Of a stretch of DNA of 64,000 nucleotides, positions 4,510 to 37,633 are shown piece by piece; the stretch's first letter is position 1, and every line of letters starts with the position of its first letter. The translations under genes and the position numbers were made by a program. The notes beneath the pieces were generated by a model that searched no databases, was not told where the DNA came from, and saw only the letters and a program-made list of their open reading frames with translations. Source of the stretch: Thermodesulfobacteriota bacterium. GTDB lineage: Bacteria > Desulfobacterota_D > UBA1144 > Nemesobacterales > UBA2774. The stretch spans positions 21,286-85,285 of the forward strand of contig DAOKYU010000009.1 of NCBI GenBank assembly GCA_035325995.1, written 5' to 3'.

Positions 4510-4788
4510 GTGAAGAAAAAGAAACGCTACGCCAACGCCAAGGATGTCCTGCCCGAGGAACTGTTCGAGCAGATCCAGAAGCACTACACCGGGATTCTCT
4601 GGGTCCCGGCACCGAGCCGGTTTTACCAGGAGCGCCGCGATCTGGTGCTTGCCCTTCACCTGCAGGGGATCAGCAGCCAGGAGATCTCCAACCTCGCCGG
4701 AGTGACCACCCGCCGGGTCAATCAGATCATCGCCGCCGAACGAAAACAGGATCGGGACCGACAGTTGGCCATCGCTTCCGGTAAGTAA
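4510..4788 (+). CDS. small HTH DNA-binding protein, Mor/C-like (sigma70 region-4-like) candidate late-gene activator
   Basis: 92 aa, Lys-rich N-terminus, C-terminal HTH ISSQEISNLAGVTTRRVNQII. Its 3' end carries the first copy of the conserved late motif. Confidence 0.5.
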   Translation: MKKKKRYANAKDVLPEELFEQIQKHYTGILWVPAPSRFYQERRDLVLALHLQGISSQEISNLAGVTTRRVNQIIAAERKQDRDRQLAIASGK

Positions 4789-4792
4789 CCCC
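4756..4792 (+). promoter_or_regulatory. copy 1 of conserved late-module motif (..CCGACAGTTGGCCATCGCTTCCGGTAAGTAACC), overlapping the stop of the HTH gene
   Basis: Shares CCGACA..GCC..CGCTTCCGGTAAGTAACC with five intergenic copies downstream. Confidence 0.45.
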
Positions 4793-4879
4793 TGAACCGG
4801 CGGGAGCGCGTTTGGAGGCTAAATCGGCCTCCCGCCCCGCATCCCGGCTTGGGAAAACAATATTCGGCAGGATTTCCAC

Positions 4880-5380
4880 GTGGCACTGAACAAACCGGAC
4901 AAAGAAACGCTGGACCGCTGGCACCGCAACGAGGGCAAGACCGAACCGCCCCGGCGCGGGCCTGGTGCGCCCGAGGGCAACCAGAACCGGCTGCGCCACG
5001 GCATCTTTGCCGACCGCTGTCTGACGCCGGAAGAGAAGGTCATGTTCGACGCGATCATTGACCGCCTCAACCAGGACTTCGAGTTCAACAAGTCCAGCGA
5101 CTTCCTGCAGGTGGAGCTGGTCGGCGTCTACTCGGTGAAGCTGGTCCGCGCCCAGATCGAAGGGAACACCGACGCCGCCGAAAAGCTCGACCGGATGATC
5201 CGCTGCCACATGAAGGATCTCAAGACCACCAAGATCGCCCGCGAGGGTGAGGAGCCGAAAGGACTGCAGACCTCTCCGGCGGAATGGGCGGCGGCGCTGC
5301 TTGAGAAGGTGGCCGAGGCCACCAACGCCCCGGGCGCGAAACCCTCCGGCCGCAAGAAACGCGGAAAGAATTGCGGATAA
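4880..5380 (+). CDS. putative terminase small subunit-like protein
   Basis: GNQNRLRHGIF motif resembling the GNxNAxKHG motif of some TerS families; basic C-terminus. Position in the genome is atypical, so this is a weak call. Confidence 0.3.
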   Translation: MALNKPDKETLDRWHRNEGKTEPPRRGPGAPEGNQNRLRHGIFADRCLTPEEKVMFDAIIDRLNQDFEFNKSSDFLQVELVGVYSVKLVRAQIEGNTDAAEKLDRMIRCHMKDLKTTKIAREGEEPKGLQTSPAEWAAALLEKVAEATNAPGAKPSGRKKRGKNCG

Positions 5381-5576
5381 CACCATGGAGGGCTTTTCCG
5401 ATGACCCCGGCACACGGCGACTTGCGGCAGACTGCTTCACCAGGAATTGCGGATAAGACGTGTTCCTTGCACTTTCGGAATCGGCATTCTCCGGCTGCCG
5501 ATCATCATTTCCACTCCTCGATTTCTTCCTGCAGCTCTCGATATCCGCTTGGCATGTGTGCGCATAAGCCGAGCCG

Positions 5577-5779
5577 CATAACCCAAGTAGATATTGGCAT
5601 GTTCGCGCCGGAGCTCTCTCACACAACCCAAGTAAATATTGGCATGTCGAGCCCCAGGCAGAACCGGCCAAGCCCCGCAAACAGCCATTCCTTCGGCAGC
5701 GGCCCTCACATAAGCCAAGCAGATATTGCCATGTGTGTTCCGCGCCTGGAGCGCACAAGCCAAGCAGTTATAGCCATGT
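5577..5779. repeat. Four 26-bp direct repeats in two pairs, each pair 45 bp apart; candidate recombinase binding sites
   Basis: Repeat consensus CA(T/C)AA(C/G)CCAAG(T/C)A(G/A)(A/T)TAT(T/A)G(G/C)CATGT, copies at 5577-5602, 5622-5647, 5709-5734 and 5754-5779. Nearby at 5555-5568 is a GTGCGCATAAGCC dif-like XerC-arm. The array lies immediately 3' of the Xer-like recombinase gene. Confidence 0.65.
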
Positions 5780-5980: not shown

Positions 5981-6895
5981 TCAGAGGCGTTCGAGGGCTT
6001 CCTCGAGCTGACCGTCCACGAGGTGGGTATAGATCTGGGTGGTGGACACGTCGCGATGTCCCAAGGCCCGCTGCACCACGAGCAGGTCATTGGTCGCGCC
6101 GTAGAGGTGGGTGGCGAAGGTGTGACGCAGCCCGTGCGGCGTCAGTTCCTTTTCGATCCCGGCTTTCCGCAGCCAGTGGGCGAGCCGGTTTGCAATCTGC
6201 CGCTGGCAGAGTCTGCCGTCCCGGTTCGACAGGAACAGGGCTTCCATTTCCGGGCGGCCGTGTCGACGACGCTCGGCCAGGTAACGGCGCAGCAATGTGC
6301 GGAGGTCGGTCTTGATGAACTTGACCTGCGGCACATTCCCCTTGGCCCGCACCCGCAGATGCTTGGCGTCGAGGTCGATGTCATCCATGTCGAGCGCGGC
6401 CAGCTCGCCAAGCCTGATCCCGGTGCCCAGCAGCACCTCGATCATGGCGCGGTCGCGCAGCGCGGAGAAGTCGGTCCGTCCCTTGAGTTCCTTGAGGAGC
6501 CGTTTCTTTTCGGCGGCGGTCAGGAACACCGGCAGTTTTCTCGGCAGCCGATGCATGCGGATGGACCGGGCCGGATTGTCATCGACCACGCCCGCCTCGA
6601 CAGCCCAGGCGAAAAAGGCTCGTACCGCAGCCTTCATCCGATGGAGCGAAGCCGCCGAGCGAGGGCCGCGCTCACTCTCGATAACCACCTCGGCGGAGAA
6701 CACCTGGTCGAGGAGCCCGGCCGTGACCGCCCGGCAGACGATGCCCGGGGTCAGCTTCCCGGCCACGCGGGCCACCAGGGCGAGGTCCCGGCGGTATGCG
6801 GCTATGGTCGCAGGGGAGCGTCCTTCGGCCGACAGGCGGGCACAGAACGCCTCCGTCGCGCCCGTCAGGTCGAGGTCAGCCGTTCGGTTGCTCAT
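5981..6895 (-). CDS. tyrosine site-specific recombinase, XerC/XerD-like
   Basis: N-terminal SAM-like core-binding domain, and C-terminal catalytic motifs HGLRHTFATHL, LGHRDVSTTQIYTHL (R..HxxR..Y). Confidence 0.8.
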   Translation of the reverse strand: MSNRTADLDLTGATEAFCARLSAEGRSPATIAAYRRDLALVARVAGKLTPGIVCRAVTAGLLDQVFSAEVVIESERGPRSAASLHRMKAAVRAFFAWAVEAGVVDDNPARSIRMHRLPRKLPVFLTAAEKKRLLKELKGRTDFSALRDRAMIEVLLGTGIRLGELAALDMDDIDLDAKHLRVRAKGNVPQVKFIKTDLRTLLRRYLAERRRHGRPEMEALFLSNRDGRLCQRQIANRLAHWLRKAGIEKELTPHGLRHTFATHLYGATNDLLVVQRALGHRDVSTTQIYTHLVDGQLEEALERL

Positions 6896-7250
6896 CGCTG
6901 GACTCCTTCACCCGGCTGTGGCCCATGGGTGTGCTCTTGGGCAGAGGCAGCTCCGCGATGCGCCCCGATTCCCTGGCCCAGACCATCATCATGCGGAACA
7001 CCCGGACGGTCTTGGCGACGGTGCGCTCGGCCCGCTCCTTGCCGTCGGGGAGTTTGAGCAGCAGGTCGGACTTGTAGAACTTGCCGACCTGGGGGAGCCG
7101 GATCTCGGCGAGCTGGCGATCCGCGCCGAAGAAGGCCTCGACCACGTCGAGGTCCTTCCTGTAGGTGTAAAGGGTCCGCTCTTTCTTTCCGGATTCCCGC
7201 AGGTGGCCGATGAAAGCCTCGGCGGCTTGATGCACGGTGCATTCGGTCAT
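6876..7250 (-). CDS. stand-alone integrase N-terminal SAM-like (core-binding) domain protein
   Basis: 124 aa, different frame from the recombinase, resembles only the N-terminal domain (TLYTYRKDLDVVEAFF). Possible remnant or accessory. Confidence 0.4.
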   Translation of the reverse strand: MTECTVHQAAEAFIGHLRESGKKERTLYTYRKDLDVVEAFFGADRQLAEIRLPQVGKFYKSDLLLKLPDGKERAERTVAKTVRVFRMMMVWARESGRIAELPLPKSTPMGHSRVKESSDEQPNG

Positions 7251-7283
7251 GTCGATGTCTCCTTTGTCGGTGGCCCGGTGTGT

Positions 7284-7478
7284 TCAGGACAGGAACTCGT
7301 CCAGCTCCCGCAGCAGTTCCTCGACGTGGCCGAGGGAGCCGACGCTCGCCCAGGTGATGTCCGTCTGCTTCGCGTCCGCTTCGAGCTTGCCGCGAATGCC
7401 CTCGATCAGCCGGGTGATGTTTTCCTGCTTTTCTCGGTACGCCTTGAGTGCCTGCTGGCGGTTTCTGTCGTAGGTCAT
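7284..7478 (-). CDS. small hypothetical protein
   Basis: 64-aa ORF from internal Met upstream of the recombinase genes. Weak call. Confidence 0.2.
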   Translation of the reverse strand: MTYDRNRQQALKAYREKQENITRLIEGIRGKLEADAKQTDITWASVGSLGHVEELLRELDEFLS

Positions 7479-7618
7479 GGCCTGCCTCCGGTTCCGGTTT
7501 TCTTGGATGCGGGACCATCCCGCGTCACATCCAATGACGCTTCTATTTCGTTGGAAATCAAGTGCTTGCAGAGATCTTTCTGCATGTGCCCCAAACCCAT
7601 AAACCAAAGGAGATCAAC

Positions 7619-9689: not shown

Positions 9690-9693
9690 TCGC

Positions 9694-9732
9694 ATCCTCC
9701 GACGCTTTCCACCCCGCTCCGGTAAGTAACCG
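9694..9732 (+). promoter_or_regulatory. copy 2 of conserved late-module motif (CCTCCGAC..CTCCGGTAAGTAACC) upstream of portal
   Basis: Intergenic, 33 bp upstream of the portal ORF. Confidence 0.5.
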
Positions 9733-9764
9733 GCATCGAGCCGGGTTCGGCCCACACGGGCCGG

Positions 9765-11312
9765 ATGTGCGGCTGTCATGGCCGAAACTACCGAGAGGAT
9801 CACGTGGAAAGCACTGCCCATCAGGACGACCAACCCGAAAGCCTGGACACCACCGGCTTTGTCATCGCGCCGCTGGCCGCAGCGGCCGCGCTCGACTCGG
9901 CCGCCTTCAGCAAGGTCAACGCCACCGAAGCGATTCCGGCCACCTGGGAAGAACGCGCCCGCAAGGCCTGGGAATACTACGTCGAGGAGCCGTTGGTGAA
10001 GAACTGCGTCAACTCCTGGCGCACCTTCGCCGTGGGCGACGAGATCAAGATCACCAGCGATGACGAGACCCTTAAGGAGCAGGCCCTGGAGGCCGCCTGG
10101 CGGTTGAACATCACGCAGTTCATCAAGGACATGGTTCTTCAACTCCTGGTGAAAGGCGACGCCATCGGCTTCAAGCGCTTTACCAAGTCCGGCCAGGACA
10201 TCGAGGAACTGGTCTGCGTCAACCCGGTTTCGGTCAAGGTTAAATACGCCCAGGGCGAACTGATCGAGGCCCGGCAATTTCCCGAGGACACCCCCGGCGG
10301 CGGGGAATCCATCCCGCTGCCCGTCGAGCAGGTGGTCCACCTCAAATGGGACGCACCGGCCTTCTCGCCCCGGGGTAACTCCCTCGTGCTTCCCGCTTTT
10401 CAAGCCATCGAACTGCTGCGCGACTACCGCCGGGCCGAACAGGCCATCGCCAAACGCTGGGCCACGCCGTTTCGCCTGCTCAAGGTGGGCGGCGCGTTCG
10501 GCCAGAAGATGGTGATGCCGGACCAGCGGATGCTCGAACAGGTTCGCGACATGGTCAACAAGATGGACATGAAAAGCGGCCTGGTGGTCCCGTTCTACGT
10601 CAATGTCGAAACCCACGGCACCGACGGCCAGGTCCTCAACGTCGAGGACAAGGTCAAGGAGGTGAAGGAAGACATCGTGGTGGCCCTGGGTCTGTCACGC
10701 TCGCTGGTGACCGGCGATGGCCCTAATTTCGCCACCGCCTCGGTGAGCATGCAGAAGATGATGGTCATGATCCGCGAGATCAAACAGGCCGCACGCAAGC
10801 TCCTCGACTGGGTGTTCGATGACTGGATGGAGCTGAACGGCCACGGCGACAAAAGCATCCAGTTCATCTTCAACGACCTCGACCCCAGCGACGCGGTCGA
10901 TTTCAAGAAGCTCCTCATCGAACTCTACGACCGCAAACTCATCAGCCGCTCCAGCCTTCAGCTCAAGATGGACCTGGACCCGGACATCGAGGCTGCCAAC
11001 CGCGAGACAGAACGTAAGCAGATCGACCTGATGGACGAGAAACAGGTGAAGCCGGTGGTGGATATGGTCGTCTCCGGCATCCTGAGCGTGCCTCGCGCCC
11101 GGAAGATGCTCGGGATTCCGGCCGAGGACAATGAACCCACGGCGGAGGCTGCATTGGTCTGGTCGGGCGACCTGGAGTCCACCGGCGATGCGGCCGTGTG
11201 CGACGAGTGCAGCCACTTCATCGCTGACACCAACCACTGCCGGGTCCACAACAGCGAGCGCACTTTCGACGCCCCGGCCTGTCGTTTCATCGACCGTCGG
11301 GAGCCCCGCTGA
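9765..11312 (+). CDS. portal protein
   Basis: 515-aa ORF immediately after TerL and before MuF-like head protein. Start uncertain, with alternative GTG at 9804 after a GAGAGG RBS-like hexamer (9794-9799). Confidence 0.65.
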   Translation: MCGCHGRNYREDHVESTAHQDDQPESLDTTGFVIAPLAAAAALDSAAFSKVNATEAIPATWEERARKAWEYYVEEPLVKNCVNSWRTFAVGDEIKITSDDETLKEQALEAAWRLNITQFIKDMVLQLLVKGDAIGFKRFTKSGQDIEELVCVNPVSVKVKYAQGELIEARQFPEDTPGGGESIPLPVEQVVHLKWDAPAFSPRGNSLVLPAFQAIELLRDYRRAEQAIAKRWATPFRLLKVGGAFGQKMVMPDQRMLEQVRDMVNKMDMKSGLVVPFYVNVETHGTDGQVLNVEDKVKEVKEDIVVALGLSRSLVTGDGPNFATASVSMQKMMVMIREIKQAARKLLDWVFDDWMELNGHGDKSIQFIFNDLDPSDAVDFKKLLIELYDRKLISRSSLQLKMDLDPDIEAANRETERKQIDLMDEKQVKPVVDMVVSGILSVPRARKMLGIPAEDNEPTAEAALVWSGDLESTGDAAVCDECSHFIADTNHCRVHNSERTFDAPACRFIDRREPR

Positions 11313-14300
11313 TGCCGTCGGACCTCAAGCAGCGCATCCATGCTGCCACCCTAAAGAGCCTTACGGCCCGCAACCGCTACAACGACCAGGTCACGGCCCA
11401 GCTTACCCAGGCGCTGAAACAGGCCGAAGACGAGGTCGCCCGCGCCATCCTCCAGTACCGCTCCCTCGGCTCCCTGCCGGACAACAAGCTCGCCGCCCTC
11501 AAGGGGCTGGAAAAGCTCCAGCTCGAACTCGACGACACCATGAAGCGGCTCAAACGGGAGCAGACCCTGCTCTTTCGCAAGACGACCAAGGACTCCTTCA
11601 AGCTCGGCATCCAGCAGGGAATCGGAGAGCTCGCCGACTCAGCGCTGCCGTTCTACGCCGACCTGAAGCCCGAGGGCATCGACAAGCTGGCCACCAAGGT
11701 GTTCACCATCGTCGACACCAATGCCCTCGACTTCATGGCGCAGTACAACCTCACACTCGCCGGTGACGTCCACCGCGAACTCGCAGACGGCATCAAGCGC
11801 ACCATCCTGAACGGCGTCGCCACGGGCAAGGGAGCCGACGACATCGTCCGGGATATGGGCAAGGTGATCGTCGACAAGGACTCCTTTCGCCAGGCCGGAA
11901 GCCGGGTGTTCAGCAAGGCGCAGTACCGCATGGAGATGATCGCCCGCACCGAGGTTCTCCGCGCCCACAACATGGGCAGGCTCAAGTTCCACGAGCGGGT
12001 CGGCATCCAGAAGCTGGAATGGCTGGCTATGGAGGACGAGCGCATGTGCCCGGTCTGCGGCGGCCTGGACGGCAAGACCTTTCCCATCGACAAGTTCCCC
12101 CAGCAACCCGCGCATCCGCACTGCCGCTGCACCAACATCGTGGCCTGGCCGATGACCGTCTGCGGTAGCGAGATGGCCGCCAAGGCAGCCGCCCAGGCAT
12201 CGCAGGGGGACGCATGCATTCTCCCGCCCCATGTGCTGGAAGGCATGGCCGACGCCCAGGCCAAGGAGAACGCCAAGCTCAAGAGCGCCTTTGAAAACGG
12301 CGACATCGCCGACCTCGGTTCGCTGACGGTCAAACAGCTCCAGACCCTGGCGAAACAGAACGGCGTGGCCATTGCCCGGACCAAGGCCGATTTCATCAAG
12401 ATGCTCGATCTGGCCGAACCGGGGATCGATCACGGCGACCTGGCCGGAGCGGCACTCAGCGCCAAGCTCAAGGAACACAAGATCGGCCTGCTGCGGACCA
12501 AGGAAGAACTGGTCGAGCTGCTCGGACTGAAGCAGGCGGAACTCAAACAGGCCAAGCTGCTCGCCGCCCAGTTGGCGAAGATCCCTCCCGCCGAGGGGCT
12601 GGAGGGCATGACCGCTCAGCAGCTCAAGGAGATGGCGAAGGAGAACGGTATCTCCCTCAACATGACCAAGCAGGAGACCATCGAGCTGCTGGATAAGCTG
12701 GAACCCGGCGTGGATCACAGCGGCCTGATGGGCAAGGAACTCGCGGCGGCCAAACAGAAGCACGGCATCGGCATCCTCAAGAACAAGCAGCAGCTCGTTG
12801 AGGCGCTGCAGAAGAAGGCCGGTGCCGACATGGCCGAGTCGGTCAAGAAAAAGGCAGTCGACGAGGCCAAACAAAAGCTGCTCCTGAAACAGAAAACGGC
12901 ACTCGAAGACGCCGCCAAGGCCGTGGTCGTTCCCGACACGCCGACCGGCTACAAGGATTTCCTCGACGCGATTGCCAAGGTGGAACAGGCGGTTTCCGGC
13001 GGCACAGATCTACCCCAGGATCTGCTGGCGGCCCACAGCAAGGAAATCGCCCTCAAGAAACAGCTCTTTCAGGATCAGATCGGCAAGCTGAAATCGACGG
13101 AGCTCAAGACGCTCGCCAAGGAGACCAAGGTCCAGTATTGGCAGTGGGCCAACAAAGACGAGCTGGCCACGCTCTTCACCGAGACCGATCCCGCGAAAAT
13201 CAAAGCGGTTCAGGCCAGCATCGACACCAAGCACGCAGCCTGGGCCGAAAAACATGGCGGCAAGAAGAAAACCGCACCGGCCAAGCCCGCCACGCCGAAG
13301 AAAGAGCCACCGAAACCGGCTCCGCAGCCGATCCCGGTCAAGCCGCCCGAGCCCAAGATCGGCAAGAAAGGCGCGGAGTTCGCCACCGTCGATACCGCGT
13401 GGCAGCAGAAGGGCCTGTCTTCGAAATTCAAGAAATCCGGCAAGGCCGCTGTCGGCGGCGCACACGAAAAGGAGTTCTGGACCGACGAAAACGGCGACAA
13501 ATGGCTGTTCAAGCCCATTGGCCGCAAGGATGACGAGTTCATCGCTTTCGGAGAGGAAGCCGCGTACAAGATCGGTCGCCTGATCGACCCTCATTCCATC
13601 GAGGTGCGCACCATCCAGTTGAACGGCCGCACCGGCTCCATCCAGAAATGGCGCACCGATCTGCGGGACGACTTCGATTTTCGCAACATCCTGCCCCAGG
13701 ATCTGACCACCATCGAACTGGAGCAGATCCAGCGCGAGCATGTGGTCGACTGGCTGATCGCCAACCACGACGGACACTCCAAGCAATTCATCCGCGCCCG
13801 GGACGGTCGCGTCTACGGCATCGACAAAGGCCAGGCCTTCAAGTTTCTGGGTCAGGACAAGCTCTCGCTCGACTATCACCCCAACGGCGTCTGCGGCGAG
13901 GAAGAGCCGTTTTACAACAAGGTCTTCCGGGCGGCCAAGGAAGGGAAGGTACGGGTCGATCCGAACGCGACCCTGCGCTACATCCAGGAAGTCGAAAAGA
14001 TCGCCGACGAGGATTACCTCGATCTGCTGCGGCCTTACGCCGAGGGACGGTTCGCCAAGGACCCGGCCGGGCTGCGGCATTTCTACGATCTGGCCTTGGA
14101 GCGGAAACACAATCTCCGGCGGGACTTCGAGGGTTATTACGCCGATGTGCTGGGGGATCGGGGCTTCCGTTTCGACAAGCTGAGCGCCGCCACCGGCAAG
14201 AAAAAGCTGCTCTCCTCCGCCGAAGAGACCCTGGTCGAGGAGGCCCGCAAACTCGGCTGGCAAGGCAAGACGTTGCCCTTCGACAGCGGCGACGTGGAGG

Positions 14301-15901
14301 ACCAGAACGCGCTGATCTTCACTGAGAGCTTCAAGGGGAAGAAGCGCACCGTGGTGAAGATGAAGATCCGGCCGGACACCGACCGCCGCATCGACGAGGT
14401 GCTGCGCAGGTATGTGCAGACGGCTGCCGGGGAAAAGGGACAACCGCTGGTCGAAGACAGCTTCTTTCCGACGATTCTGGACGCCGTCAAAAACGTCAAT
14501 TTCCACGTGGGCGACGGCAAGTACAACCGGACCAAGATCGACAAGGCCCTGCGCCTGCGCAAGAAACTGGAGACCCTACAAAAGAGCGCCGACCCCAAGG
14601 TCAAGGAGATGGCGGACCATTATCTGAAATGGGTCAAGGAGATCGAAGAATCCGTCGACTGGGACCGGGCCACCAACGGCGTTTTTGAGCAGTATCTGCC
14701 CAAGCTCGACGCGCAGAAACCCAAGGAGAAACCGCCGTTCAAGGTGGAACGCGGCAAGGTGACCCACACCAAGCGCAGGATCAGTTCCGGCACCATCACC
14801 GTCGAGGCCGACGACATCGACAACCGGACGCTGTTCAATCACAACTCCCGCATGCAGGACGGGCACCAGTACACCGTCACCTTCGAGGACGGCACCCGGG
14901 TCCGCTATCGCCCCTGGTCGGACACCAACCTTTATGCCCAGCGCGGAGAGCTGGAAATGATCCTGGATGGCGATGCCACCCCCGGACGGGTCGAAGCGAT
15001 GCTGGAAAAGCTCGAACAGCTCGGCATCGACACCCGGGTGGCCACGGCGGAAAACGCGGAGCAGATGTATCTCGAAAAGCTCGCCTACATCCGCAAGACC
15101 GACAAGAGCGCCGACTACAAACGACTGCAGAAATCCCTCGACGACCGCAACGCCACCACCACCGAGCGGGTCCAGGCTCTGCGCGGCTATTGGCAAAAGG
15201 AACTTGGCGTCCAGGACATCACCCAGCTTTCCGGATACAACCCGCTGGGCGAATATCAGGCGGGCTTTCTGGACCGCGACGCCAAGGGCGGATACCGGCA
15301 CCAGCTCCGGTTCGACATCACTGAGGAGGACCTGGAAAAACAGATGAAGGGCTATTCGCTGGTCCACGATCTGACCAACGGCGAGAGTATGTCCGGCTTC
15401 ATCGACTTGATCATGGAGAACAACGGAGCCATGGTCAGCACGGTCGAGAAGATGCGCATGGGCGTGGCTCCGGGCGGAATGTCCCCGGTGGCTGACATGC
15501 AGACCGGCGGCGCGAGCTATTTCTTCACCCGGATCAAGAAGCAACCGGCCAGCGACGCCTCACCGGCCCTCTATTTCAAGAAACAGATGCTGCGGCGCAT
15601 GGACGCCATCAGCTACGACCATGACGCCTACGGCAAGGTGATTGATGACTACGTGCAGCGCAACCGGGGGGCCAGCATCGACGACTGGAAGCGGTTCTCG
15701 CAGCGCCATGGCAACGAGACCATCTTCAAATACTCGGTGACGCTGCTGGACAACATCGAATTCATCGTCGCCAGAAGCGACAACGAACGCCGGGAGATCA
15801 TCCAGAGTTTCACCCGGCGCGGCATCAAGAAACTGCCCGACGGGCGCAAGGTGGAGGACATCGTCCATACCCCGCAAAGCTGGAGCAAACGCAAACAATG
15901 A
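11312..15901 (+). CDS. MuF/SPP1-gp7-family minor head protein with a ~1,100-aa C-terminal extension (HeH/Rho-N-like repeats, P/K-rich linker, atypical-kinase-like core)
   Basis: MuF motif region MCPVCGGLDG...HPHCRC. Three to four ~45-aa HeH-like repeats (LTVKQLQTLAKQNGVAIARTKADFIKML...). Linker KKKTAPAKPATPKKEPPKPAPQPIPVKPPEPK. Then WLFKPIGRK / LIANHDGHSKQF / GIDKGQAF resembling the HipA/PI3-4K catalytic core. Confidence 0.7.
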   Translation: MPSDLKQRIHAATLKSLTARNRYNDQVTAQLTQALKQAEDEVARAILQYRSLGSLPDNKLAALKGLEKLQLELDDTMKRLKREQTLLFRKTTKDSFKLGIQQGIGELADSALPFYADLKPEGIDKLATKVFTIVDTNALDFMAQYNLTLAGDVHRELADGIKRTILNGVATGKGADDIVRDMGKVIVDKDSFRQAGSRVFSKAQYRMEMIARTEVLRAHNMGRLKFHERVGIQKLEWLAMEDERMCPVCGGLDGKTFPIDKFPQQPAHPHCRCTNIVAWPMTVCGSEMAAKAAAQASQGDACILPPHVLEGMADAQAKENAKLKSAFENGDIADLGSLTVKQLQTLAKQNGVAIARTKADFIKMLDLAEPGIDHGDLAGAALSAKLKEHKIGLLRTKEELVELLGLKQAELKQAKLLAAQLAKIPPAEGLEGMTAQQLKEMAKENGISLNMTKQETIELLDKLEPGVDHSGLMGKELAAAKQKHGIGILKNKQQLVEALQKKAGADMAESVKKKAVDEAKQKLLLKQKTALEDAAKAVVVPDTPTGYKDFLDAIAKVEQAVSGGTDLPQDLLAAHSKEIALKKQLFQDQIGKLKSTELKTLAKETKVQYWQWANKDELATLFTETDPAKIKAVQASIDTKHAAWAEKHGGKKKTAPAKPATPKKEPPKPAPQPIPVKPPEPKIGKKGAEFATVDTAWQQKGLSSKFKKSGKAAVGGAHEKEFWTDENGDKWLFKPIGRKDDEFIAFGEEAAYKIGRLIDPHSIEVRTIQLNGRTGSIQKWRTDLRDDFDFRNILPQDLTTIELEQIQREHVVDWLIANHDGHSKQFIRARDGRVYGIDKGQAFKFLGQDKLSLDYHPNGVCGEEEPFYNKVFRAAKEGKVRVDPNATLRYIQEVEKIADEDYLDLLRPYAEGRFAKDPAGLRHFYDLALERKHNLRRDFEGYYADVLGDRGFRFDKLSAATGKKKLLSSAEETLVEEARKLGWQGKTLPFDSGDVEDQNALIFTESFKGKKRTVVKMKIRPDTDRRIDEVLRRYVQTAAGEKGQPLVEDSFFPTILDAVKNVNFHVGDGKYNRTKIDKALRLRKKLETLQKSADPKVKEMADHYLKWVKEIEESVDWDRATNGVFEQYLPKLDAQKPKEKPPFKVERGKVTHTKRRISSGTITVEADDIDNRTLFNHNSRMQDGHQYTVTFEDGTRVRYRPWSDTNLYAQRGELEMILDGDATPGRVEAMLEKLEQLGIDTRVATAENAEQMYLEKLAYIRKTDKSADYKRLQKSLDDRNATTTERVQALRGYWQKELGVQDITQLSGYNPLGEYQAGFLDRDAKGGYRHQLRFDITEEDLEKQMKGYSLVHDLTNGESMSGFIDLIMENNGAMVSTVEKMRMGVAPGGMSPVADMQTGGASYFFTRIKKQPASDASPALYFKKQMLRRMDAISYDHDAYGKVIDDYVQRNRGASIDDWKRFSQRHGNETIFKYSVTLLDNIEFIVARSDNERREIIQSFTRRGIKKLPDGRKVEDIVHTPQSWSKRKQ

Positions 15902-16772: not shown

Positions 16773-16810
16773 CCCTCCGACACATCGCCGACGCTTCCGG
16801 TAAGTAACCG
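16773..16810 (+). promoter_or_regulatory. copy 3 of conserved late-module motif (CCTCCGACACATCGCCGACGCTTCCGGTAAGTAACC)
   Basis: Intergenic, 54 bp upstream of the MTase-protease-scaffold gene. Confidence 0.5.
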
Positions 16811-16863
16811 CTGAACGCTCCCCGCAGGTCGCGGAGAGCACAGCAAACTGACCGGAGACGTTG

Positions 16864-22168: not shown

Positions 22169-22206
22169 GCCTCCGACACATCGCCAGCGCTTCCGGTAAG
22201 TAACCA
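22169..22206 (+). promoter_or_regulatory. copy 4 of conserved late-module motif (CCTCCGACACATCGCCAGCGCTTCCGGTAAGTAACC)
   Basis: Begins right after stop of the gp10-like gene, 22 bp before the tail-module start codon. Confidence 0.5.
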
Positions 22207-28800: not shown

Positions 28801-29527
28801 AAGGCTTTCCAGCGGCGCGAGCGCGGGCATCCAGGCACTCAAGGATCGCAGCACCGGGATCGCCAACGGTTTGCTCTCCTCCGCTCGCGCCATGCTGGGA
28901 GTCCAGACCCCGATTCCGCAGGTGGCCGAGCAGAAACAACCGCTCGGAGCTACGCCGCCCGCCGAATCGATTGGGCAACGCATCATCGAAAGCGTGCTCA
29001 GTCTCATGCCGCGTCTGGACGAGCGCCTGGTGCCCAAGGCTCTGAGCGCCATGCTGATGCTCCAGCCGGTCATGGCCACGGCCGCGCCGCATCCGCAACA
29101 GATGAACGGCACCGTGCAGACCGTCGCGGCAGCCGTTGAGCCGGTAAGTAAGAGCTATATCCAGCCGTTTGCGGTGGAACCGGCACCGGAAATCGGAAGT
29201 GCCTCTCTGGCTCCGGCCGGGATCGAGCGGCCCAAGACAACCGCGCCGACTCCGATAGCGAAGCCCCTGCAATCCGGACTCACCGAGACGGTGCCTTCCG
29301 AACGGTTGATTGCTCCGGCCCGCACCGCTCCCGCGATACTCCTGCGGGCAGAGGAAAGCGGTCCGGGTCTGCGCGAGCTGCTGGAATCGCTGCTCTCGCG
29401 CCTCGATGGCCTGGCCGAGCGCCCGGTGGAACTGAGCGTGACCACCAACATCGATGGCCGGAAGGTGGCCGAGGCAGTCTACAAGGACCTTCGCGAGCGG
29501 AAGATCAGAAATTACGAAACACTTTGA
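25892..29527 (+). CDS. tail tape measure protein
   Basis: 1211 aa, Ala/Gly-rich with hydrophobic segments, located after the frameshifted chaperone. Confidence 0.8.
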   Translation: MNGDLGLGIVVSMKDAFSQNAQRIRGSMMDLDSTVADASERMTRNLDRIQQGTMMLGAGLALMAVPAALVASTAATQKALGELASLGVQDLRAIEDAAESFTNQWSGADKAAFITATYDVKSALSNLSDEAVGVFTSMAAMTAKATKATTQEMVGTFTTAYGIFKPIMADMNDMEWATAFSGAMAQTVASFKTNGTQMADAIKNIGAVAAASNIPLNEQLAVLGQLQTTMPGSEAGTLYKAFIMKAAEAGDELGLSFTDTSGRLKGVVPILQEIKRQFPDLSNAAAQVKLKKAFGSDEAVKFLLQMSAGMESLEGNIQSVGRAMKTGTAVTEQMADAMNQDIGARFLLLRQQMANLSEILGRTLLPVVTPMINGVSRFILFLQRMAKSMPGVTRVVLGLSMALGTILVVAGAVTAAVGMVGLMLPAIKAGFVAISAALAGVGSAVATYFLPVTAIIAGVILSVYLLKRAWETNFGGIQDVITGAWNKVSLVFRGVRELVGSLSGGVGQMSAELAQKLESAGLMGFVVTVFKAYYRVREALAGLWAAFSHAFGRIRAILEPTVRTLMSAYAALASAVFSVVEIFGVAASATDGSSWRTFGTVIGTVAGVLLQGLAFALKIVAWNLSLIVRALAVVVRSVVWVGKVIVGSLVGATKFIYKFLLPVRMIGEAFVAAGKIVYAVWQVLTGDISLLDGLKAIGGAVYDLLATPFRWARDVVVGVWNFISGIFTSIGRLVADAAGQIGQAILNLPIISTLRDLFATVRSFFAGDTTFFEAGKKLLITLGEGIWSAVTYPFTMLKNALGKLRNLLPFSDAREGPLASLTASGSALLKTLADGMSLTQSLPAKVFGFAARGILSAAAGTWQQIKTAGGNLMDAASAPFRMAGKLWDGLTSGAQTVAAKAGAIFGGLKQSLFGNTPELALTPPQVNAWDALATGAVNLRDRIVATLSAVPGAVGRIFASAGTEGQSLWQRLSSGASAGIQALKDRSTGIANGLLSSARAMLGVQTPIPQVAEQKQPLGATPPAESIGQRIIESVLSLMPRLDERLVPKALSAMLMLQPVMATAAPHPQQMNGTVQTVAAAVEPVSKSYIQPFAVEPAPEIGSASLAPAGIERPKTTAPTPIAKPLQSGLTETVPSERLIAPARTAPAILLRAEESGPGLRELLESLLSRLDGLAERPVELSVTTNIDGRKVAEAVYKDLRERKIRNYETL

Positions 29528-29847: not shown

Positions 29848-29850
29848 GGA

Positions 29851-30608: not shown

Positions 30609-30646
30609 GGCGTCCGACACCTCGCCATGCCTTCCGGTAAGTAAGC
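30609..30646 (+). promoter_or_regulatory. copy 5 of conserved late-module motif (CGTCCGACACCTCGCCATGCCTTCCGGTAAGTAAGC)
   Basis: Intergenic, 29 bp upstream of the gpD-like gene. Confidence 0.5.
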
Positions 30647-33783: not shown

Positions 33784-33795
33784 AGGAAGCATTGC

Positions 33796-34170: not shown

Positions 34171-34430
34171 GCTCCCAGGCGCGACTTGGCGACATCAGCA
34201 GTCACGGCGGCGTCATCATCACCGGGGCCAGTCGGACGCTGGACAACGGCATGCCGGTGGCCCGCATGGGGGATCTGCACGTCTGTCCCATCCCGGGGCA
34301 TGGCGTGACGCCCATCGTGACCGGCAGCTTCGACACCATCACCGAAGGATTGCCCAACGCCCGCATCGGCGACATCACCGCCTGCGGAGCCATCATCCTC
34401 ACCGGCAGTCCCGACACCATCGACAACTGA
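34167..34430 (+). CDS. PAAR-domain spike tip protein
   Basis: LGDISSHGGVII, ARMGDLHVCP, ARIGDITACGAII PAAR-like repeats. 87 aa. Confidence 0.65.
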   Translation: MSSQARLGDISSHGGVIITGASRTLDNGMPVARMGDLHVCPIPGHGVTPIVTGSFDTITEGLPNARIGDITACGAIILTGSPDTIDN

Positions 34431-34440
34431 GGGGGCCGCC

Positions 34441-34749: not shown

Positions 34750-35756
34750 CGGATACCCCACCAGCCTTCAGCCACTGGGAGGTTCAGCCTCGCTCCATCC
34801 GGCTCTCCGCTGGCGAGTTCGAGCAAAGGGTTCCGCTCTCCCTGCGCGGCGACGTGGACGCCCCGGTTTTTGCCTCCAGCAATCCGGAGGTCGCGGAGAT
34901 CGGGCAGGATGGCGTCATTCGCTGCGGCTGGACCATCGGCAACGCCGTGCTCATGGTTTGGCGGTCTTCGGCCCGGGACAGCCTCCGCCATGTTCTGGTG
35001 GAGGTCCGCGATCCGTCCTGGTTCGCCGACCACCCGGACTTTGCCAGCGGAGCATCGGTTTTCCTCAGTGGCACGGTGGTCAACGCCATCAACACCAGCG
35101 GCGTCGGCAACGCGCTGATCGAATTCCGCCGCTCGGAAACCGGCCCTGCGGCGTTTCAGACCTTCGCCAACGCCTATGGCGGGTTTGAGCTGTCCGTGCC
35201 CGAGGGATTCTATTACGTGGAGGTCACAGCGCCGGGATACATCGCCTGGCATGGCTGGGTGAACGCCGACCCCAACACCTCCGGCGACATCCAGATCGTT
35301 CTTTCGCCCGAGCTCGACGGCCAGGTCGCCCGCATCGTGTTGCAGTGGGGCCTCAACCCCAGGGATCTCGATTCCCATCTCACCGGACCGACGCCATCGG
35401 GCGGTCGCTTCCATGTGTTCTATTCCCACACCATCGAAAACGAGGCGGCGGAATTGGACGTGGACGACACCAGCTCCTACGGGCCGGAGACCATCACCAT
35501 CCATCGGCTCATCCCAGGTGTCTACCGGTACGCGGTCCACGACTACACCAACCGCAACGCCAATCCGAGCACCGGCCTGGCGCAGTCCGGAGCCTCGGTG
35601 AAAGTATTCCTGAGCGATGGCCGTGAGCAGACCTTCACCGTTCCCAACGCCCCGGGCACGGTCTGGACCGTGTTCGAAATCGACGGCGCGACCGGAACAG
35701 TGACGCCGGTCAACGCCATGAGCTATCAATCCCAACCCGCCAATGTCGGCATGTAA
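34747..35756 (+). CDS. BIG2-like + carboxypeptidase-regulatory-like domain protein
   Basis: N-terminal domain is a paralog of the previous ORF. GTVVNAINTSGVGNALIEF...YYVEVTAPGY resembles CarboxypepD_reg. Confidence 0.45.
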
Positions 35757-35762
35757 TGGAGG

Positions 35763-36659
35763 TTGTCCATGATTTCCGAAGAACCCGCCGACTTGCAGGC
35801 CACCATCGAACAGACCGATTCTGGGGAACAGCAGTATGTGCTGCGGGCGCTCTGCGATCACCTGTCAGGCATTCGTGAGGAGCTTTCCGGCATCCGCACG
35901 CTGCTGGAGGCCGGTCACGCCGCCTCTGAGGCGATGCGCGGCCAGGCCCAGGCCTATCTTGAGGCCCAGCAGGCCAGGACCCAGGAGTACCTGGAGCAGG
36001 TACAGATCGAGCCGGAGCCCGATTTCTATCCCTTCGTCGAACTGCCTGCGGGCACCGAACCCCGGGATCTGCCGGATGGCAACCGGCTCTTCACCTTGCC
36101 CGACGGCATGATCCTGCGAACCACGGACGACCAGCGAATCTGCGTTATCGACGGCGGGGAACAGCGGGTCATCACCCCCGGACCCGGCACGGCCATCGAG
36201 GTCGCCCCGGGACGCCTTTACACCCTGGTCGAGTCCTATCTGCGTTCGCCCCAGGAGGCGGCCGGTATCAGCGGACTGCCTGCCGGGATCGAGCCGACCG
36301 CCATGGGCGCGGAACGCTTCGCGGTGGTTCTGCCCGAGGGCATCCGCCTCGACGTCGATCACCGGGAGCGGTTCATCACCCTGATCAACCCGGCCGGACC
36401 TATCGACATCATCGGCATCGGCCGTATCGAGGGTATCGGCGAAACCATCGCTGTTCGTCTGCTGTCCGGCGGAGCCAAGGGATTCCAGTGCGGCCAGTCC
36501 GGCCATGGCGGGCTGATCGAGGCGGACGGAACCATCCACCTGGGTCTGAAAAATGGTCTGGATCTGGTGGTCCGGTTCCAGGGAGAAGCCATCGACGACG
36601 GCACTTCGAAAAATGGCTGCGCCGCTCAGTGCGGCCTCGACTGCGAGGAGCGTACCTGA
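35763..36659 (+). CDS. hypothetical baseplate-module protein
   Basis: 298-aa ORF, no recognisable domain. Confidence 0.4.
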   Translation: MSMISEEPADLQATIEQTDSGEQQYVLRALCDHLSGIREELSGIRTLLEAGHAASEAMRGQAQAYLEAQQARTQEYLEQVQIEPEPDFYPFVELPAGTEPRDLPDGNRLFTLPDGMILRTTDDQRICVIDGGEQRVITPGPGTAIEVAPGRLYTLVESYLRSPQEAAGISGLPAGIEPTAMGAERFAVVLPEGIRLDVDHRERFITLINPAGPIDIIGIGRIEGIGETIAVRLLSGGAKGFQCGQSGHGGLIEADGTIHLGLKNGLDLVVRFQGEAIDDGTSKNGCAAQCGLDCEERT

Positions 36660-37588
36660 TGAGCTATGACTTTCTCGGCAAGGGGCTGCGTTACCCGTTC
36701 CGGTTTCAGTCGCTATCCGGCGGCACCCAGGTCTCGACCGCCACCTCACGGGAGCACGAGCATATTCGCGAAAGCATCCTGCAGATCCTCGGCACCCGGA
36801 TCGGCGAACGGTTCATGAATCCGGAGTTCGGCTCCCGGCTGAAGGATCTGGTGTTCGAACAGAACGACGAGGTGCTCAAGGGCCTGCTGCGCCATTACGT
36901 GATCGACGCCATCAAGCGCTGGGAAAAGCGGGTGATCATCACGGAGGTGCGCTTCGACGACCGGCCGCTGAACATCGACGGCAACCTGCTGCTGGTGCAT
37001 ATCGCCTACCGGGTGATCCAGAGCCAAGTGGACGGCAACCTGGTCTATCCCTTCTACAGAGAAGACCCGAACAATCCCGCGCCCAGCTATCCCCAGCCGG
37101 AGCCCGAGCCGGAACCCGAGCCGGAACCGCCGCCGGTGCGCAGCGTGCGCCTGTCGCCGGACGTGCGCTCGCTGTTCAATCTGCTCTGGTTCGACGCGGC
37201 CGAGATGAGCCCCGATCCGGCGGATTCCTTGATCTGGCCAGCCGGGAAATACGAAGTCGCCTACATCGAGGGAGCCTTTCAGGACCGCAACGGCAAGTGG
37301 ATCGTCAGCGATCCGGGTGACAACCACGGCCATTACCTGACATTCGAGGGAGCGCCAGAAACGGAAGCGCCCCAAGCCGAGCACGCCCTCTATCTGGCCG
37401 CGAGCGGTCTGGGCTTCGACACCCCGAGTCAGGCGGAAGACAACGCCGCTGGCACCGTTCACCGGATCAGCACCCTGGAGCCGGGCCGCATCGGTCTGTT
37501 CTATTTCGAGGGCAAGAAGGAATCCCACTACCTCAACAACATCTCCGGGCAGCCCAATCCCGTCTGGCAACTGCGCGGCCCGCTCTGA
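36659..37588 (+). CDS. baseplate wedge protein gpW/gp25-like with PEPEPEPEPEP linker and extra C-terminal domain
   Basis: ILQILGTRIGERFMNPEFGSRL (GPW_gp25 signature). Unusual ~170-aa C-terminal extension after a Pro-Glu repeat. Confidence 0.65.
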   Translation: MSYDFLGKGLRYPFRFQSLSGGTQVSTATSREHEHIRESILQILGTRIGERFMNPEFGSRLKDLVFEQNDEVLKGLLRHYVIDAIKRWEKRVIITEVRFDDRPLNIDGNLLLVHIAYRVIQSQVDGNLVYPFYREDPNNPAPSYPQPEPEPEPEPEPPPVRSVRLSPDVRSLFNLLWFDAAEMSPDPADSLIWPAGKYEVAYIEGAFQDRNGKWIVSDPGDNHGHYLTFEGAPETEAPQAEHALYLAASGLGFDTPSQAEDNAAGTVHRISTLEPGRIGLFYFEGKKESHYLNNISGQPNPVWQLRGPL

Positions 37589-37597
37589 GGCATCCCG

Positions 37598-37633
37598 CCT
37601 CCGACACATCCAGGCCCCTTCCGGTAAGTAACC
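37598..37633 (+). promoter_or_regulatory. copy 6 of conserved late-module motif (CCTCCGACACATCCAGGCCCCTTCCGGTAAGTAACC)
   Basis: Intergenic, 55 bp upstream of baseplate J gene. Confidence 0.5.

What the first reader, a model, noticed from the sequence alone, without database searches (positions are those of the whole stretch)
4756..37633. Conserved ~36-bp motif before every late-gene module (six copies)
CCTCCGACACATCGCC-N4-5-CTTCCGGTAAGTAACC, with small variations, occurs at 4756, 9694, 16773, 22169, 30609 and 37598. Each copy sits 22-55 bp upstream of the first gene of a packaging, head, tail or baseplate module. The first copy overlaps the stop codon of a Mor/C-like HTH gene. There is no hairpin, so these are not terminators. 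The pattern fits activator-dependent late promoters or operators of a Mu-C/Ogr-like regulator, though RNA processing sites are an alternative. The embedded GGTAAGTAAC is striking but is most likely a -10-proximal element.
Basis: seen in the sequence. Interest (0 to 1): 0.65.

Follow-up and report, generated by a model that had tools for sequence, protein, structure and literature searches.

The report
Phage sigma-factor promoters before each module
A 32-base signal repeated eight times in this prophage is most likely the promoter read by the phage's own sigma factor; that is a known kind of phage control, found here in an unstudied prophage family that occurs in many bacterial phyla.

Summary
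The motif is real but was described imprecisely. It is ungapped and two-part: CCGAC-N15-CCGGTAAGTAA(C/G). An eighth, conserved CCGTC variant lies inside the tape-measure gene. All eight are on the coding strand (0.07 expected by chance).

The same motif sits at the same syntenic sites in more than 200 related prophage loci from many phyla. It persists where flanking DNA no longer aligns.

Its geometry is that of a -35 and a -10 element. One relative has a start codon only 4 nt after the motif, so the core promoter must lie inside it.

Relatives, including one near-identical to the window over the region compared, encode an ECF-like sigma factor. Among the loci inspected, nearly all have the motif, or a clade-specific variant, beginning within about 20 nt after the sigma stop codon or overlapping the gene's 3' end. 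The variants recur within each phage and track changes in the sigma region-4 recognition helix.

The sigma gene lies outside the window. The Mor/C-like 92-aa protein is only a weak, N-terminally short relative. It is missing from its usual position in one clade that keeps the motif, and the motif lacks Mu-type features.

Verdict: phage-sigma-dependent middle and late promoters, a new member of a known kind.

The parts
3665..3696 (+). It lies 39 nt upstream of the 256-aa gene. Predicted promoter of the p256-p92 operon.
   Evidence: Exact pattern match. PWM score 38 bits. The same site is occupied in relatives down to 46% p256 identity.
4758..4789 (+). Motif copy 2. It overlaps the last 31 nt of the 92-aa HTH gene, including its stop codon, and lies 90 nt upstream of the 166-aa gene (a weak terminase-small-subunit-like match).
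   Evidence: The C-terminal residues RQ....SGK* of p92 are encoded by the motif itself.
9699..9730 (+). Motif copy 3, between the large terminase gene (which ends at 9689) and the portal gene.
   Evidence: Present at the terL-portal junction for 34 motif instances in related loci.
16777..16808 (+). Motif copy 4, before the 799-aa gene that is followed by the major head protein gene.
22173..22204 (+). Motif copy 5, 23 nt before the 182-aa gene that opens the tail-sheath module.
29121..29152 (+). Motif copy 6, a variant with CCGTC as the -35 element. It lies inside the 3' part of the tape-measure gene and is a probable weaker internal promoter for the genes from 29524 onward.
   Evidence: One mismatch to the pattern. 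The element is kept in relatives despite synonymous changes around it, and it is a full canonical CCGAC copy in L025 at 36% amino-acid identity. The same CCGTC variant is used upstream of the recombinase operon in relatives.
30614..30645 (+). Motif copy 7 (ends in AAG), 29 nt before the 427-aa tail protein gene.
   Evidence: In relative L169 the orthologous ATG is only 4 nt after the motif.
37601..37632 (+). Motif copy 8, 55 nt before the baseplate wedge gene. It is the last copy in the window.
3736..4506 (+). The 256-aa gene (p256), first gene of a motif-driven operon at the junction of the early and late regions. Function unknown. It is a candidate co-regulator.
   Evidence: More than 287 homologous clusters, none with a Pfam domain. 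AlphaFold model of two domains with no PDB fold match.
4510..4788 (+). The 92-aa HTH gene (p92), a weak and N-terminally short relative of Mu Mor/C. It is a possible accessory regulator, not the main reader of the motif.
   Evidence: phrog_836 'late transcriptional activator', E=1.9e-5. hhalign against Mu C gives E=0.0057 and against Mor 0.0075, both in the same register over the beta-linker and HTH. The fold is a generic sigma-4/LuxR/resolvase-type HTH.
3173..3340 (+). Remnant of the C-terminus of the Sak4-like (AAA_24) gene. It anchors synteny: in relatives the order is sigma, motif, m111, exonuclease, Sak4, variable genes, p142, motif, p256. This places the sigma gene upstream of window position 1.
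   Evidence: tblastn hit at 64% identity. Gene order in L072/L281 and L241.

Best explanation
The motif is the promoter recognised by host core RNA polymerase carrying a phage-encoded ECF-like sigma factor of about 194 aa.

**How the parts are read (inferred)**
- (T)CCGAC(R) acts as the -35 element and is read by sigma region 4.
- (CTY)CCGGTAAGTAAC contains the -10 element and is read by sigma region 2.
- Transcription starts about 4-6 nt after the motif.

**Gene layout**
- In this phage family the sigma gene ends a rightward early operon that begins with a LexA-like small repressor gene.
- The first cognate promoter usually begins within about 20 nt after the sigma stop codon or overlaps the gene's 3' end.

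**Predicted cascade**
- Once sigma is made, it turns on, from identical promoters, the recombination genes (m111, exonuclease, Sak4).
- It also turns on the p256-p92 operon, the leftward operon of a small 80-aa gene (r80), DUF2924 and the serine recombinase, and each packaging, head, tail and baseplate module.

**Shown**
- The motif exists at eight sites, always oriented with the genes downstream.
- The sites are syntenic and strongly conserved across relatives.
- The sigma gene and the motif are linked, and they vary together between clades.

**Inferred**
- That sigma binds the motif, and where transcription starts.
- That this phage's own sigma gene lies just upstream of the window.

**Role of p256 and p92**
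- They may adjust timing or strength, as gp79 does for the phiEco32 sigma, but the motif does not require them.
For: **1. Real and non-random**
- 8 matches on one strand against 0.07 expected.

**2. Promoter geometry**
- The motif is asymmetric, with a 5-6 nt box and a 12-nt box at fixed spacing.
- Information content falls to about zero outside positions -1 to +33.

**3. Placement and orientation**
- Every copy points toward the downstream genes. This includes the minus-strand copies before the recombinase operon in relatives.

**4. Conservation at syntenic sites**
- Copies sit before p256, p166, portal, p799, p182, p427 and p469 in relatives with only 46-70% protein identity, where the flanks do not align.

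**5. The core promoter lies inside the motif**
- In L169 the orthologous ATG is 4 nt after the motif. That puts it 7 nt after TAAGTA, the usual distance from a -10 element to a start site.

**6. A sigma factor is present in the family**
- L241:6804-7388 matches phrog_1740 'RNA polymerase sigma factor' at E=3.5e-25.
- It matches Pfam Sigma70_r2 at 8e-5 and Sigma70_r4_2 at 2.5e-4.
- Its best PDB match is an ECF SigE, E=1.2e-4, with both domains in the right order.
- JGI names homologs ECF-subfamily sigma-70 factors, and NCBI names them sigma-70 family sigma factors.

**7. Sigma and motif are linked**
- The contig of L072 and L281 carries sigma, motif, m111, exonuclease and Sak4 upstream of p142, motif and p256. 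Over the region it shares with the window its proteins are 94-100% identical.
- I inspected 44 loci retrieved by sigma homology alone (29-99% identity). Nearly all show an element of the same architecture after the sigma gene. In most it begins within about 20 nt of the stop codon or overlaps the gene's 3' end.

**8. Sigma and motif vary together**
- Clade-specific variants recur within a phage. Examples are TCGTC-N15-CCGGTATGTATC (three copies in L298), CCGGC-N15-CCAGTAAATATC (L301, L305) and GYGAC-N15-CCGGTAGAGAAC (L317).
- The -35 variant tracks the region-4 helix: RxT[LIV]Y goes with CCGAC, TLD/TLA with TCGTC, and RHKID with CCGGC.

**9. No competing promoter signal**
- Each 20-kb scan (3.0-23.0 kb and 23.0-43.0 kb) found one sigma-70-like match, below the 2.3-2.4 expected by chance. 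Neither match lies at a motif site.

**10. Specific to this phage family**
- 115 of 120 viral loci and 87 of 120 genome loci with an exact motif also carry homologs of this phage's genes.

**11. Precedent**
- phiEco32 gp36 has six promoters and phage 7-11 gp47 has eight bipartite promoters, placed before middle or late gene clusters (PMC8948821).
Against: - The sigma gene is not in the window. Its presence in this genome is inferred from synteny with closely related loci.
- No transcription start, binding or expression data exist for any member of the family.
- Twelve invariant bases around the -10 element, plus partial conservation in the spacer (T at +8 and +19, C-rich stretches), exceed what a typical ECF promoter shows. 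A second factor could therefore also contact the DNA.
- Pfam scores for this particular sigma fall just below the curated cut-offs.
- The link between the region-4 helix and the -35 element rests on about three independent clade changes.
- A Mor/C-like gene sits right beside two copies, so a role for it cannot be excluded.
Confidence: 0.75

Rival explanations
1. Activator-dependent promoters of the Mu type. The Mor/C-like p92, alone or with p256, would bind the motif and recruit host sigma-70 polymerase.
For: - p92 matches the PHROG 'late transcriptional activator' family (E=1.9e-5).
- It aligns with Mu C and Mor in the same register.
- Its gene sits at the junction of the early and late regions and overlaps one motif copy.
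Against: - The motif has no dyad symmetry, and nothing is conserved upstream of it where Mor/C tetramers bind (bioRxiv 10.1101/2025.05.02.651988).
- No sigma-70-like -10 hexamer is present.
- p92 lacks most of the Mor/C dimerisation domain.
- The p92 family is narrow, 36 clusters, all at least 57% identical over the aligned part.
- In L289, which keeps the canonical motif, the next motif copy overlaps the 3' end of p256, leaving no room for a p92 gene there.
- The motif also drives p92's own operon and the m111 operon that lies upstream of it.
Confidence: 0.1
2. An RNA-level element in long read-through transcripts. It could be a processing site, an antitermination signal, or an anti-Shine-Dalgarno sequence that masks the ribosome-binding site of the next gene.
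For: - Upstream genes end 5-17 nt before most copies with no terminator, so read-through RNA would contain the motif.
- CUUCCGG can pair with CCGGAG ribosome-binding sites. Several sites fold better than shuffled sequence, with z-scores of -3 to -4.
Against: - The invariant CCGAC and GGTAAGTAAC pair with nothing conserved.
- There is no Rfam match at any copy.
- Pairing with ribosome-binding sites is no stronger overall than with those of internal genes, and it is lost in distant relatives.
- An RNA element would not explain the link to a sigma gene, the co-variation with its DNA-binding helix, or the start codon 4 nt after the motif in L169.
Confidence: 0.04
3. A DNA site for another protein. 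Examples are an operator for the prophage repressor that silences every operon, or a site-specific nick or recombination site.
For: - The motif is long and highly conserved.
- It lies at the start of every operon, including the divergent control region next to the LexA-like repressor gene.
Against: - The motif is asymmetric and strictly oriented with transcription, whereas repressor operators are usually dyads. No inverted repeat lies within it.
- An operator would not explain why the motif follows the sigma gene's stop codon in nearly all of the sigma-selected relatives inspected, or why it varies with sigma.
Confidence: 0.05
4. A promoter for a host alternative sigma factor rather than the phage sigma.
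For: - The -35/-10 geometry fits any sigma-70-family factor.
- The phage sigma gene is not in the window.
Against: - The identical motif occurs in prophages of at least six phyla, which share no single specialised host sigma.
- Nearly all exact matches lie in this phage family and not elsewhere in host genomes.
- The motif varies with the phage sigma.
Confidence: 0.04

Closest known systems
Promoters of phage-encoded sigma factors in phiEco32 (gp36) and Salmonella phage 7-11 (gp47) (PMC8948821)
   Same: - A phage sigma redirects host core polymerase to 6-8 near-identical promoters placed before middle and late gene clusters.
- Phage 7-11 uses a bipartite element with a 16-nt spacer.
- The phiEco32 element tAATGTAtA resembles the GGTATGTAT variants seen here. 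I noted this resemblance but did not test it.
- phiEco32 also has a small co-factor, gp79, a possible analogue of p92 or p256.
   Different: - Those are lytic podoviruses of enterobacteria.
- Here the phage is a temperate myovirus-type prophage that integrates with a serine recombinase and occurs in many phyla.
- The consensus is different and much longer.
- The first promoter usually begins at or just after the end of the sigma gene, and the same promoter also drives the recombinase operon.
Bacterial ECF (group 4) sigma factors and their promoters
   Same: - A sigma of about 190 aa with two domains (region 2 and region 4).
- A bipartite promoter with a spacer of about 16-17 nt.
- High promoter specificity, with clade-specific promoter variants.
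   Different: - ECF sigma genes usually sit behind their own promoter and next to an anti-sigma gene. Here the promoter follows the gene and no anti-sigma is recognisable.
- The element sequences (CCGAC and GGTAAGTAA) differ from the common GGAAC and CGTC type. That last comparison is from my own knowledge.
Mu Mor/C-dependent middle and late promoters
   Same: - A small phage HTH protein is encoded at the junction of the early and late regions.
- Several late operons each have their own promoter.
- The head module has a Mu-like order (terminase, portal, a Mu F-like protein).
   Different: - Mu promoters have a sigma-70 -10 hexamer and an imperfect dyad upstream of -35, bound by a Mor/C tetramer. 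None of these features is present here.
- p92 lacks most of the dimerisation domain.
- This phage integrates with a serine recombinase and no transposase was seen in the parts examined.
Late sigma systems of Bacillus phage SPO1 (gp28, gp33/34), the PBSX element (Xpf) and phage T4 (gp55)
   Same: A phage sigma replaces the host sigma and sets up a cascade. This comparison is from my own knowledge and was not tested.
   Different: The sigma families, hosts and promoter sequences differ. T4 gp55 reads only a -10 element and depends on the sliding clamp.

Membership tests
Promoter of a sigma-70-family (ECF-like) sigma factor | Two conserved boxes at fixed spacing of about 16-18 nt, asymmetric in sequence | tested here: met
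   CCGAC-N15-CCGGTAAGTAAC aligns without gaps in all copies. The spacing from the CCGAC box to GGTAAG is 17 nt.
Promoter of a sigma-70-family (ECF-like) sigma factor | Located upstream of genes and oriented with them | tested here: met
   Eight of eight copies in the window are on the coding strand. Minus-strand copies in relatives precede minus-strand operons.
Promoter of a sigma-70-family (ECF-like) sigma factor | A cognate sigma gene with region 2 and region 4 in the same element | tested here: inconclusive
   Met in relatives, including L072/L281, whose proteins in the shared region are 94-100% identical to the window's. The window itself lacks the gene, and synteny places it upstream of position 1.
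Promoter of a sigma-70-family (ECF-like) sigma factor | The promoter sequence changes when the sigma DNA-binding residues change | tested here: met
   Clade-specific variants recur within a phage. The -35 variant tracks the region-4 helix. This rests on about three independent changes.
Promoter of a sigma-70-family (ECF-like) sigma factor | Transcription starts about 5-9 nt downstream of the -10 element, and the sigma holoenzyme transcribes the template | not testable with these tools
   Indirect support only: in L169 the ATG lies 7 nt after TAAGTA.
Mu Mor/C-dependent promoter | Activator with an N-terminal dimerisation domain, a beta-strand linker and a C-terminal HTH | tested here: inconclusive
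   The linker and HTH align weakly. Only about 20 residues precede the aligned part, against 58 in Mor. The fold search was not significant.
Mu Mor/C-dependent promoter | An imperfect dyad-symmetry binding site upstream of, or overlapping, the -35 element | tested here: not met
   The motif has no dyad. Positions -40 to -2 carry at most 0.6 bits of information.
Mu Mor/C-dependent promoter | A recognisable sigma-70 -10 hexamer with a poor -35 element | tested here: not met
   TAAGTA lacks the T at -7. The sigma-70 scan finds nothing at any copy.
P2 Ogr / P4 Delta-dependent late promoter | A TGT-N12-ACA dyad near -55 and a zinc-finger activator (features recalled from my own knowledge) | tested here: not met
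   Nothing is conserved upstream of the motif. I did not search specifically for an Ogr-like protein.
Intrinsic terminator | A GC-rich hairpin followed by a T-run | tested here: not met
   No terminator-like site lies at any copy. The motif is mostly unpaired in predicted folds.
Known structured RNA family (Rfam) | A covariance-model match at the gathering score | tested here: not met
   The only match in the window is at 34265-34336, which is not a motif site.

The most novel reading that the evidence does not exclude
The sigma and promoter pair could be a transcription module that works independently of the host, letting one temperate phage lineage operate across phyla. Prophages about 95-97% identical in nucleotide sequence to this window occur in isolates of Gammaproteobacteria (Ectothiorhodospira) and Desulfobacterota (Desulfobulbus, Desulfocarbo). 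If so, the clade-specific variants would be a natural set of orthogonal sigma/promoter pairs. In addition, p256 and p92 could be a new kind of co-factor that separates middle from late expression among promoters that look identical.
Probability: 0.25. Interest if true: 0.75.

Novelty: new member of a known kind. Interest (0 to 1): 0.5.

Why it matters
- The result gives a testable regulatory map for a large, uncultivated family of prophages found in sulfate reducers, purple sulfur bacteria, Acidobacteriota, Nitrospirota and other groups.
- The map is simple: one phage sigma and one 32-nt promoter ahead of nearly every operon outside the early one.
- The promoter is easy to recognise, so it can mark operon boundaries and flag members of this family in metagenomes.
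- The sigma and promoter variants are candidate orthogonal expression parts that may work in many phyla.
- Closely related copies in distant hosts raise the question of how wide this phage's host range is.

Tried and rejected
- **Close cultured relative.** megablast of 24 kb against GenBank phages found nothing. tblastn with p92 found nothing. The 1529-aa head protein gave only remote domain matches.
- **Literature search for GGTAAGTAAC.** It returned only unrelated eukaryotic and herpesvirus papers.
- **p256 as a split or novel sigma.** I was prompted by a YFAWLRSRM stretch that looks like sigma region 2.3. The model is of moderate quality (mean pLDDT 75) and has no PDB fold or sequence match, so I dropped the idea.
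- **p92 as a clear Mor/C member.** There is no Pfam hit and the fold search was not significant. Only weak profile evidence remains.
- **Anti-Shine-Dalgarno pairing of CUUCCGG with downstream ribosome-binding sites.** It looked suggestive in the window, where 3 of 7 motif-preceded genes use CCGGAG against 1 of about 41 internal genes. Across relatives the duplex energies are no better than with the ribosome-binding sites of internal genes, so I dropped it as a general function.
- **Extra weak copies after 37.6 kb.** Relaxed patterns found none.
- **Separate middle and late promoter classes.** The per-site consensus sequences differ mainly by their own ancestry and show no shared class-specific feature.

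Full report
**1. The observation**

All six reported copies are real. The motif is better written as an ungapped two-part element, CCGAC-N15-CCGGTAAGTAA(C/G).

The pattern, allowing up to 3 mismatches, matches eight times in the window, always on the + strand. Dinucleotide-preserving shuffles give 0.07 matches.
- The eighth, 29121-29152, has CCGTC and lies inside the tape-measure gene.
- A position weight matrix and relaxed patterns find nothing else, and nothing after 37.6 kb.

The copy at 4758-4789 overlaps the end of the 92-aa gene. Its stop codon is the second TAA of GGTAAGTAAC. The C-terminal residues RQ....SGK, which look conserved in that protein family, are simply the motif read as codons.

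The genes downstream of the copies are as follows:
- a 256-aa and a 92-aa gene;
- a 166-aa gene with a weak terminase-small-subunit-like match;
- the portal gene;
- a 799-aa gene followed by the major head protein gene;
- a 182-aa gene followed by the tail sheath gene;
- a tail protein gene;
- a baseplate wedge gene.

**2. Conservation elsewhere**

An exact-pattern scan hit the 120-locus ceiling in the viral collection and again in the genome collection. A 17-base pattern is expected by chance roughly 100 times in 596 Gb (my estimate), so I checked the context of the hits.
- 115 of 120 viral loci and 87 of 120 genome loci also encode homologs of this phage's proteins.
- Loci without such homologs match the unsearched consensus positions less well.
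- From 115 distinct viral instances, the extended consensus is T-CCGAC-R-C-W-T...C-Y-T-CCGGTAAGTAAC-C. Information content falls to about zero outside positions -1 to +33.

The copies occupy the same syntenic sites in relatives: before p256, p166, portal, p799, p182, p427 and p469. This holds down to 46-70% protein identity, where the intergenic flanks no longer align.

The eighth, internal site is also conserved. Synonymous positions around it vary while both boxes stay fixed. In L025, at 36% amino-acid identity, it is a full canonical copy.

Hosts named in the genome records span several phyla and classes:
- Gammaproteobacteria
- Desulfobacterota
- Acidobacteriota
- Nitrospirota
- Planctomycetota
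- Kiritimatiellota
- other groups

**3. Why it is a core promoter**

- The element is asymmetric and always points toward the genes that follow. This includes minus-strand copies ahead of minus-strand operons in relatives.
- Its two boxes are spaced like -35 and -10 elements.
- In L169 the orthologous start codon of the tail gene, confirmed by N-terminal homology, is only 4 nt after the motif. That is 7 nt after TAAGTA. A promoter further downstream is therefore impossible there, and the transcript would be leaderless.
- No hairpin with a T-run lies at any copy, and no Rfam family matches there.
- Each 20-kb scan (3.0-23.0 kb and 23.0-43.0 kb) found one sigma-70-like site, against 2.3-2.4 in shuffles. 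Neither site lies at a motif copy.

**4. Who reads it**

The left arm of the phage is visible in relative L241, a defective prophage that was still informative. Its gene order is:
- leftward: serine recombinase, DUF2924 and an 80-aa gene;
- then, rightward: a LexA-like small repressor gene, early genes, an 89-aa gene and a 194-aa gene;
- then a motif copy, followed by a 111-aa gene, a PD-(D/E)XK exonuclease and a Sak4-like gene;
- then another motif copy, followed by p256.

The 194-aa protein is a sigma factor.
- It matches phrog_1740 at E=3.5e-25.
- It matches Pfam Sigma70_r2 and Sigma70_r4_2, just under the curated cut-offs.
- Its best PDB match is an ECF SigE, with both domains in the right order.
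- JGI names homologs ECF-subfamily sigma-70 factors, and NCBI names them sigma-70 family sigma factors.

The window does not contain this gene. It starts in the variable region downstream of Sak4, of which only a remnant remains at 3173-3340. Contig IMGVR_UViG_2648501453_000002 carries the sigma gene upstream in the expected order. Its p166, p92 and p256 are 100%, 98% and 94% identical to the window's.

I then fetched loci by sigma homology alone (29-99% identity) and inspected 44 of them.
- Nearly all show an element of the same architecture after the sigma gene.
- Where my pattern located it, it usually began within about 20 nt of the stop codon or overlapped the gene's 3' end.

Distant clades carry their own variants, and each variant recurs within the same phage:
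- TCGTC-N15-CCGGTATGTATC
- CCGGC-N15-CCAGTAAATATC
- GYGAC-N15-CCGGTAGAGAAC
- CCGAC-N15-CCGGTAGGTGAC

The -35 variant follows the region-4 recognition helix:
- RxT[LIV]Y goes with CCGAC.
- TLD or TLA goes with TCGTC.
- RHKID goes with CCGGC.

This co-variation is the strongest comparative evidence for direct recognition. It rests on about three independent changes.

**5. The Mor/C-like gene**

p92 has only weak Mor/C similarity.
- It matches phrog_836 at E=1.9e-5.
- It aligns with Mu C and Mor in one consistent register over the beta-strand linker and the HTH, but with low probability.
- Only about 20 residues precede that region, against 58 in Mor, so most of the dimerisation domain is missing.
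- The predicted fold is a generic HTH of the sigma-4, LuxR or resolvase type.

Mor and C bind an imperfect dyad upstream of -35, as tetramers, at promoters that keep a sigma-70 -10 hexamer (bioRxiv 10.1101/2025.05.02.651988). The motif has none of these features.

The p92 family is small, 36 clusters. In L289, which keeps the canonical motif, the next motif copy overlaps the 3' end of p256, so there is no room for a p92 gene at its usual position.

p256 has no recognisable fold or family.

Both genes are themselves behind a motif copy, so they are products of the sigma regulon. They may tune it, as gp79 does in phiEco32 (PMC8948821), but I have no evidence for that.

**6. Comparison with known systems, and verdict**

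The closest described systems are the phiEco32 and 7-11 phage sigma factors. They have six and eight near-identical promoters placed before middle or late genes (PMC8948821). This case works the same way, in a different and unstudied setting: a temperate, contractile-tailed prophage that integrates with a serine recombinase.

Points of difference:
- the consensus is unusually long;
- the first promoter usually begins at or just after the end of the sigma gene;
- the same promoter also drives the recombinase operon.

I class it as a new member of a known kind, with confidence 0.75 in the sigma-promoter reading.

What remains unexplained:
- the extra conservation in the spacer and around the -10 element;
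- the role of p256 and p92;
- how middle and late timing could differ among promoters that look identical.

Separately, the window is about 95-97% identical in DNA to prophages in isolates from different phyla. That deserves its own follow-up.

Noticed in passing
whole window, compared with L121/L130, L128/L145/L162, L152 and L167: The window is about 95-97% identical in nucleotide sequence, over 5-8 kb stretches, to prophages in Ectothiorhodospira shaposhnikovii DSM 243 (Gammaproteobacteria), Desulfobulbus rhabdoformis DSM 8777 and Desulfocarbo indianensis (Desulfobacterota), and to several MAGs. This suggests a very broad host range or recent spread. I did not check host flanks or rule out contamination.
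   Followed up: partly
L241:6339-6608 and L241:7493-7828, with homologs in most sigma-bearing loci: An 89-aa gene just upstream of sigma and a 111-aa gene just downstream of the first promoter are conserved across the family, down to about 30-45% identity. Neither has a Pfam or PHROG match. They could be sigma partners, for example an anti-sigma factor or a co-factor.
   Followed up: no
window 1303-3245 (also 55-1209): An AAA_21 ATPase and an RloB-like protein form a defence-type pair in the variable region between Sak4 and p142. A terminator-like hairpin follows at 3275-3294. Relatives carry different cargo at this position.
   Followed up: partly
window 5981-7607, minus strand: A tyrosine integrase (304 aa), a 124-aa gene and possibly a third small gene lie on the opposite strand, inside the late region between p166 and the terminase gene. 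The same cassette occurs in L241. It may be a nested mobile element or a second recombinase.
   Followed up: partly
window 11312-15901: The 1529-aa protein after the portal gene has a Mu F/SPP1 gp7-like minor head domain at its N-terminus. It also has a stretch resembling endonuclease VII and a region similar to the ADP-ribosyltransferase part of mycobacteriophage capsid fusion proteins. It may be a head-packaged effector.
   Followed up: no
window 9731-9770, 16809-16860 and 37633-37690, and the same sites in relatives: Stable hairpins lie directly downstream of several motif copies, in the predicted 5' leaders. At the portal site the stem differs between relatives but still pairs: GGCCC/GGGCC in one and CCCC/GGGG in another. 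They could stabilise the mRNA or control translation.
   Followed up: partly
window 34265-34336, + strand: A borderline Rfam match to Pseudomonas sRNA P10 (37.7 bits against a gathering score of 37) lies within the tail/baseplate gene region. It is probably a chance match.
   Followed up: no
window 51162-62063: The right end carries a DUF6079 protein (1245 aa), a 23S rRNA intervening-sequence-type protein, a 948-aa DNA methylase and several AAA_15/AAA_21 ATPases. GC content there falls to 45-50%. It looks like a defence island at or beyond the prophage end.
   Followed up: partly
L144:6409-6509, L161:1480-1580 and L183:179-283: In some genome loci with no detectable homologs of this phage's genes, two exact motif copies lie in tandem 69-73 bp apart. 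They may belong to more distant family members with a doubled promoter.
   Followed up: no
L241 and L243, about 14.6-16.9 kb in L241: This relative is a deleted, probably defective prophage. Portal residues 1-227 are joined to p1529 residues 173-265 and then to p799 residues 343-799, and both p92 and the C-terminus of p256 are lost. The motif copies remain intact.
   Followed up: partly
window 16861-19260: The 799-aa gene that opens the head module matches a PHROG annotated as DNA methyltransferase over its full length (1739 bits). That is an unexpected gene to find just before the gene pair that ends in the major head protein.
   Followed up: no
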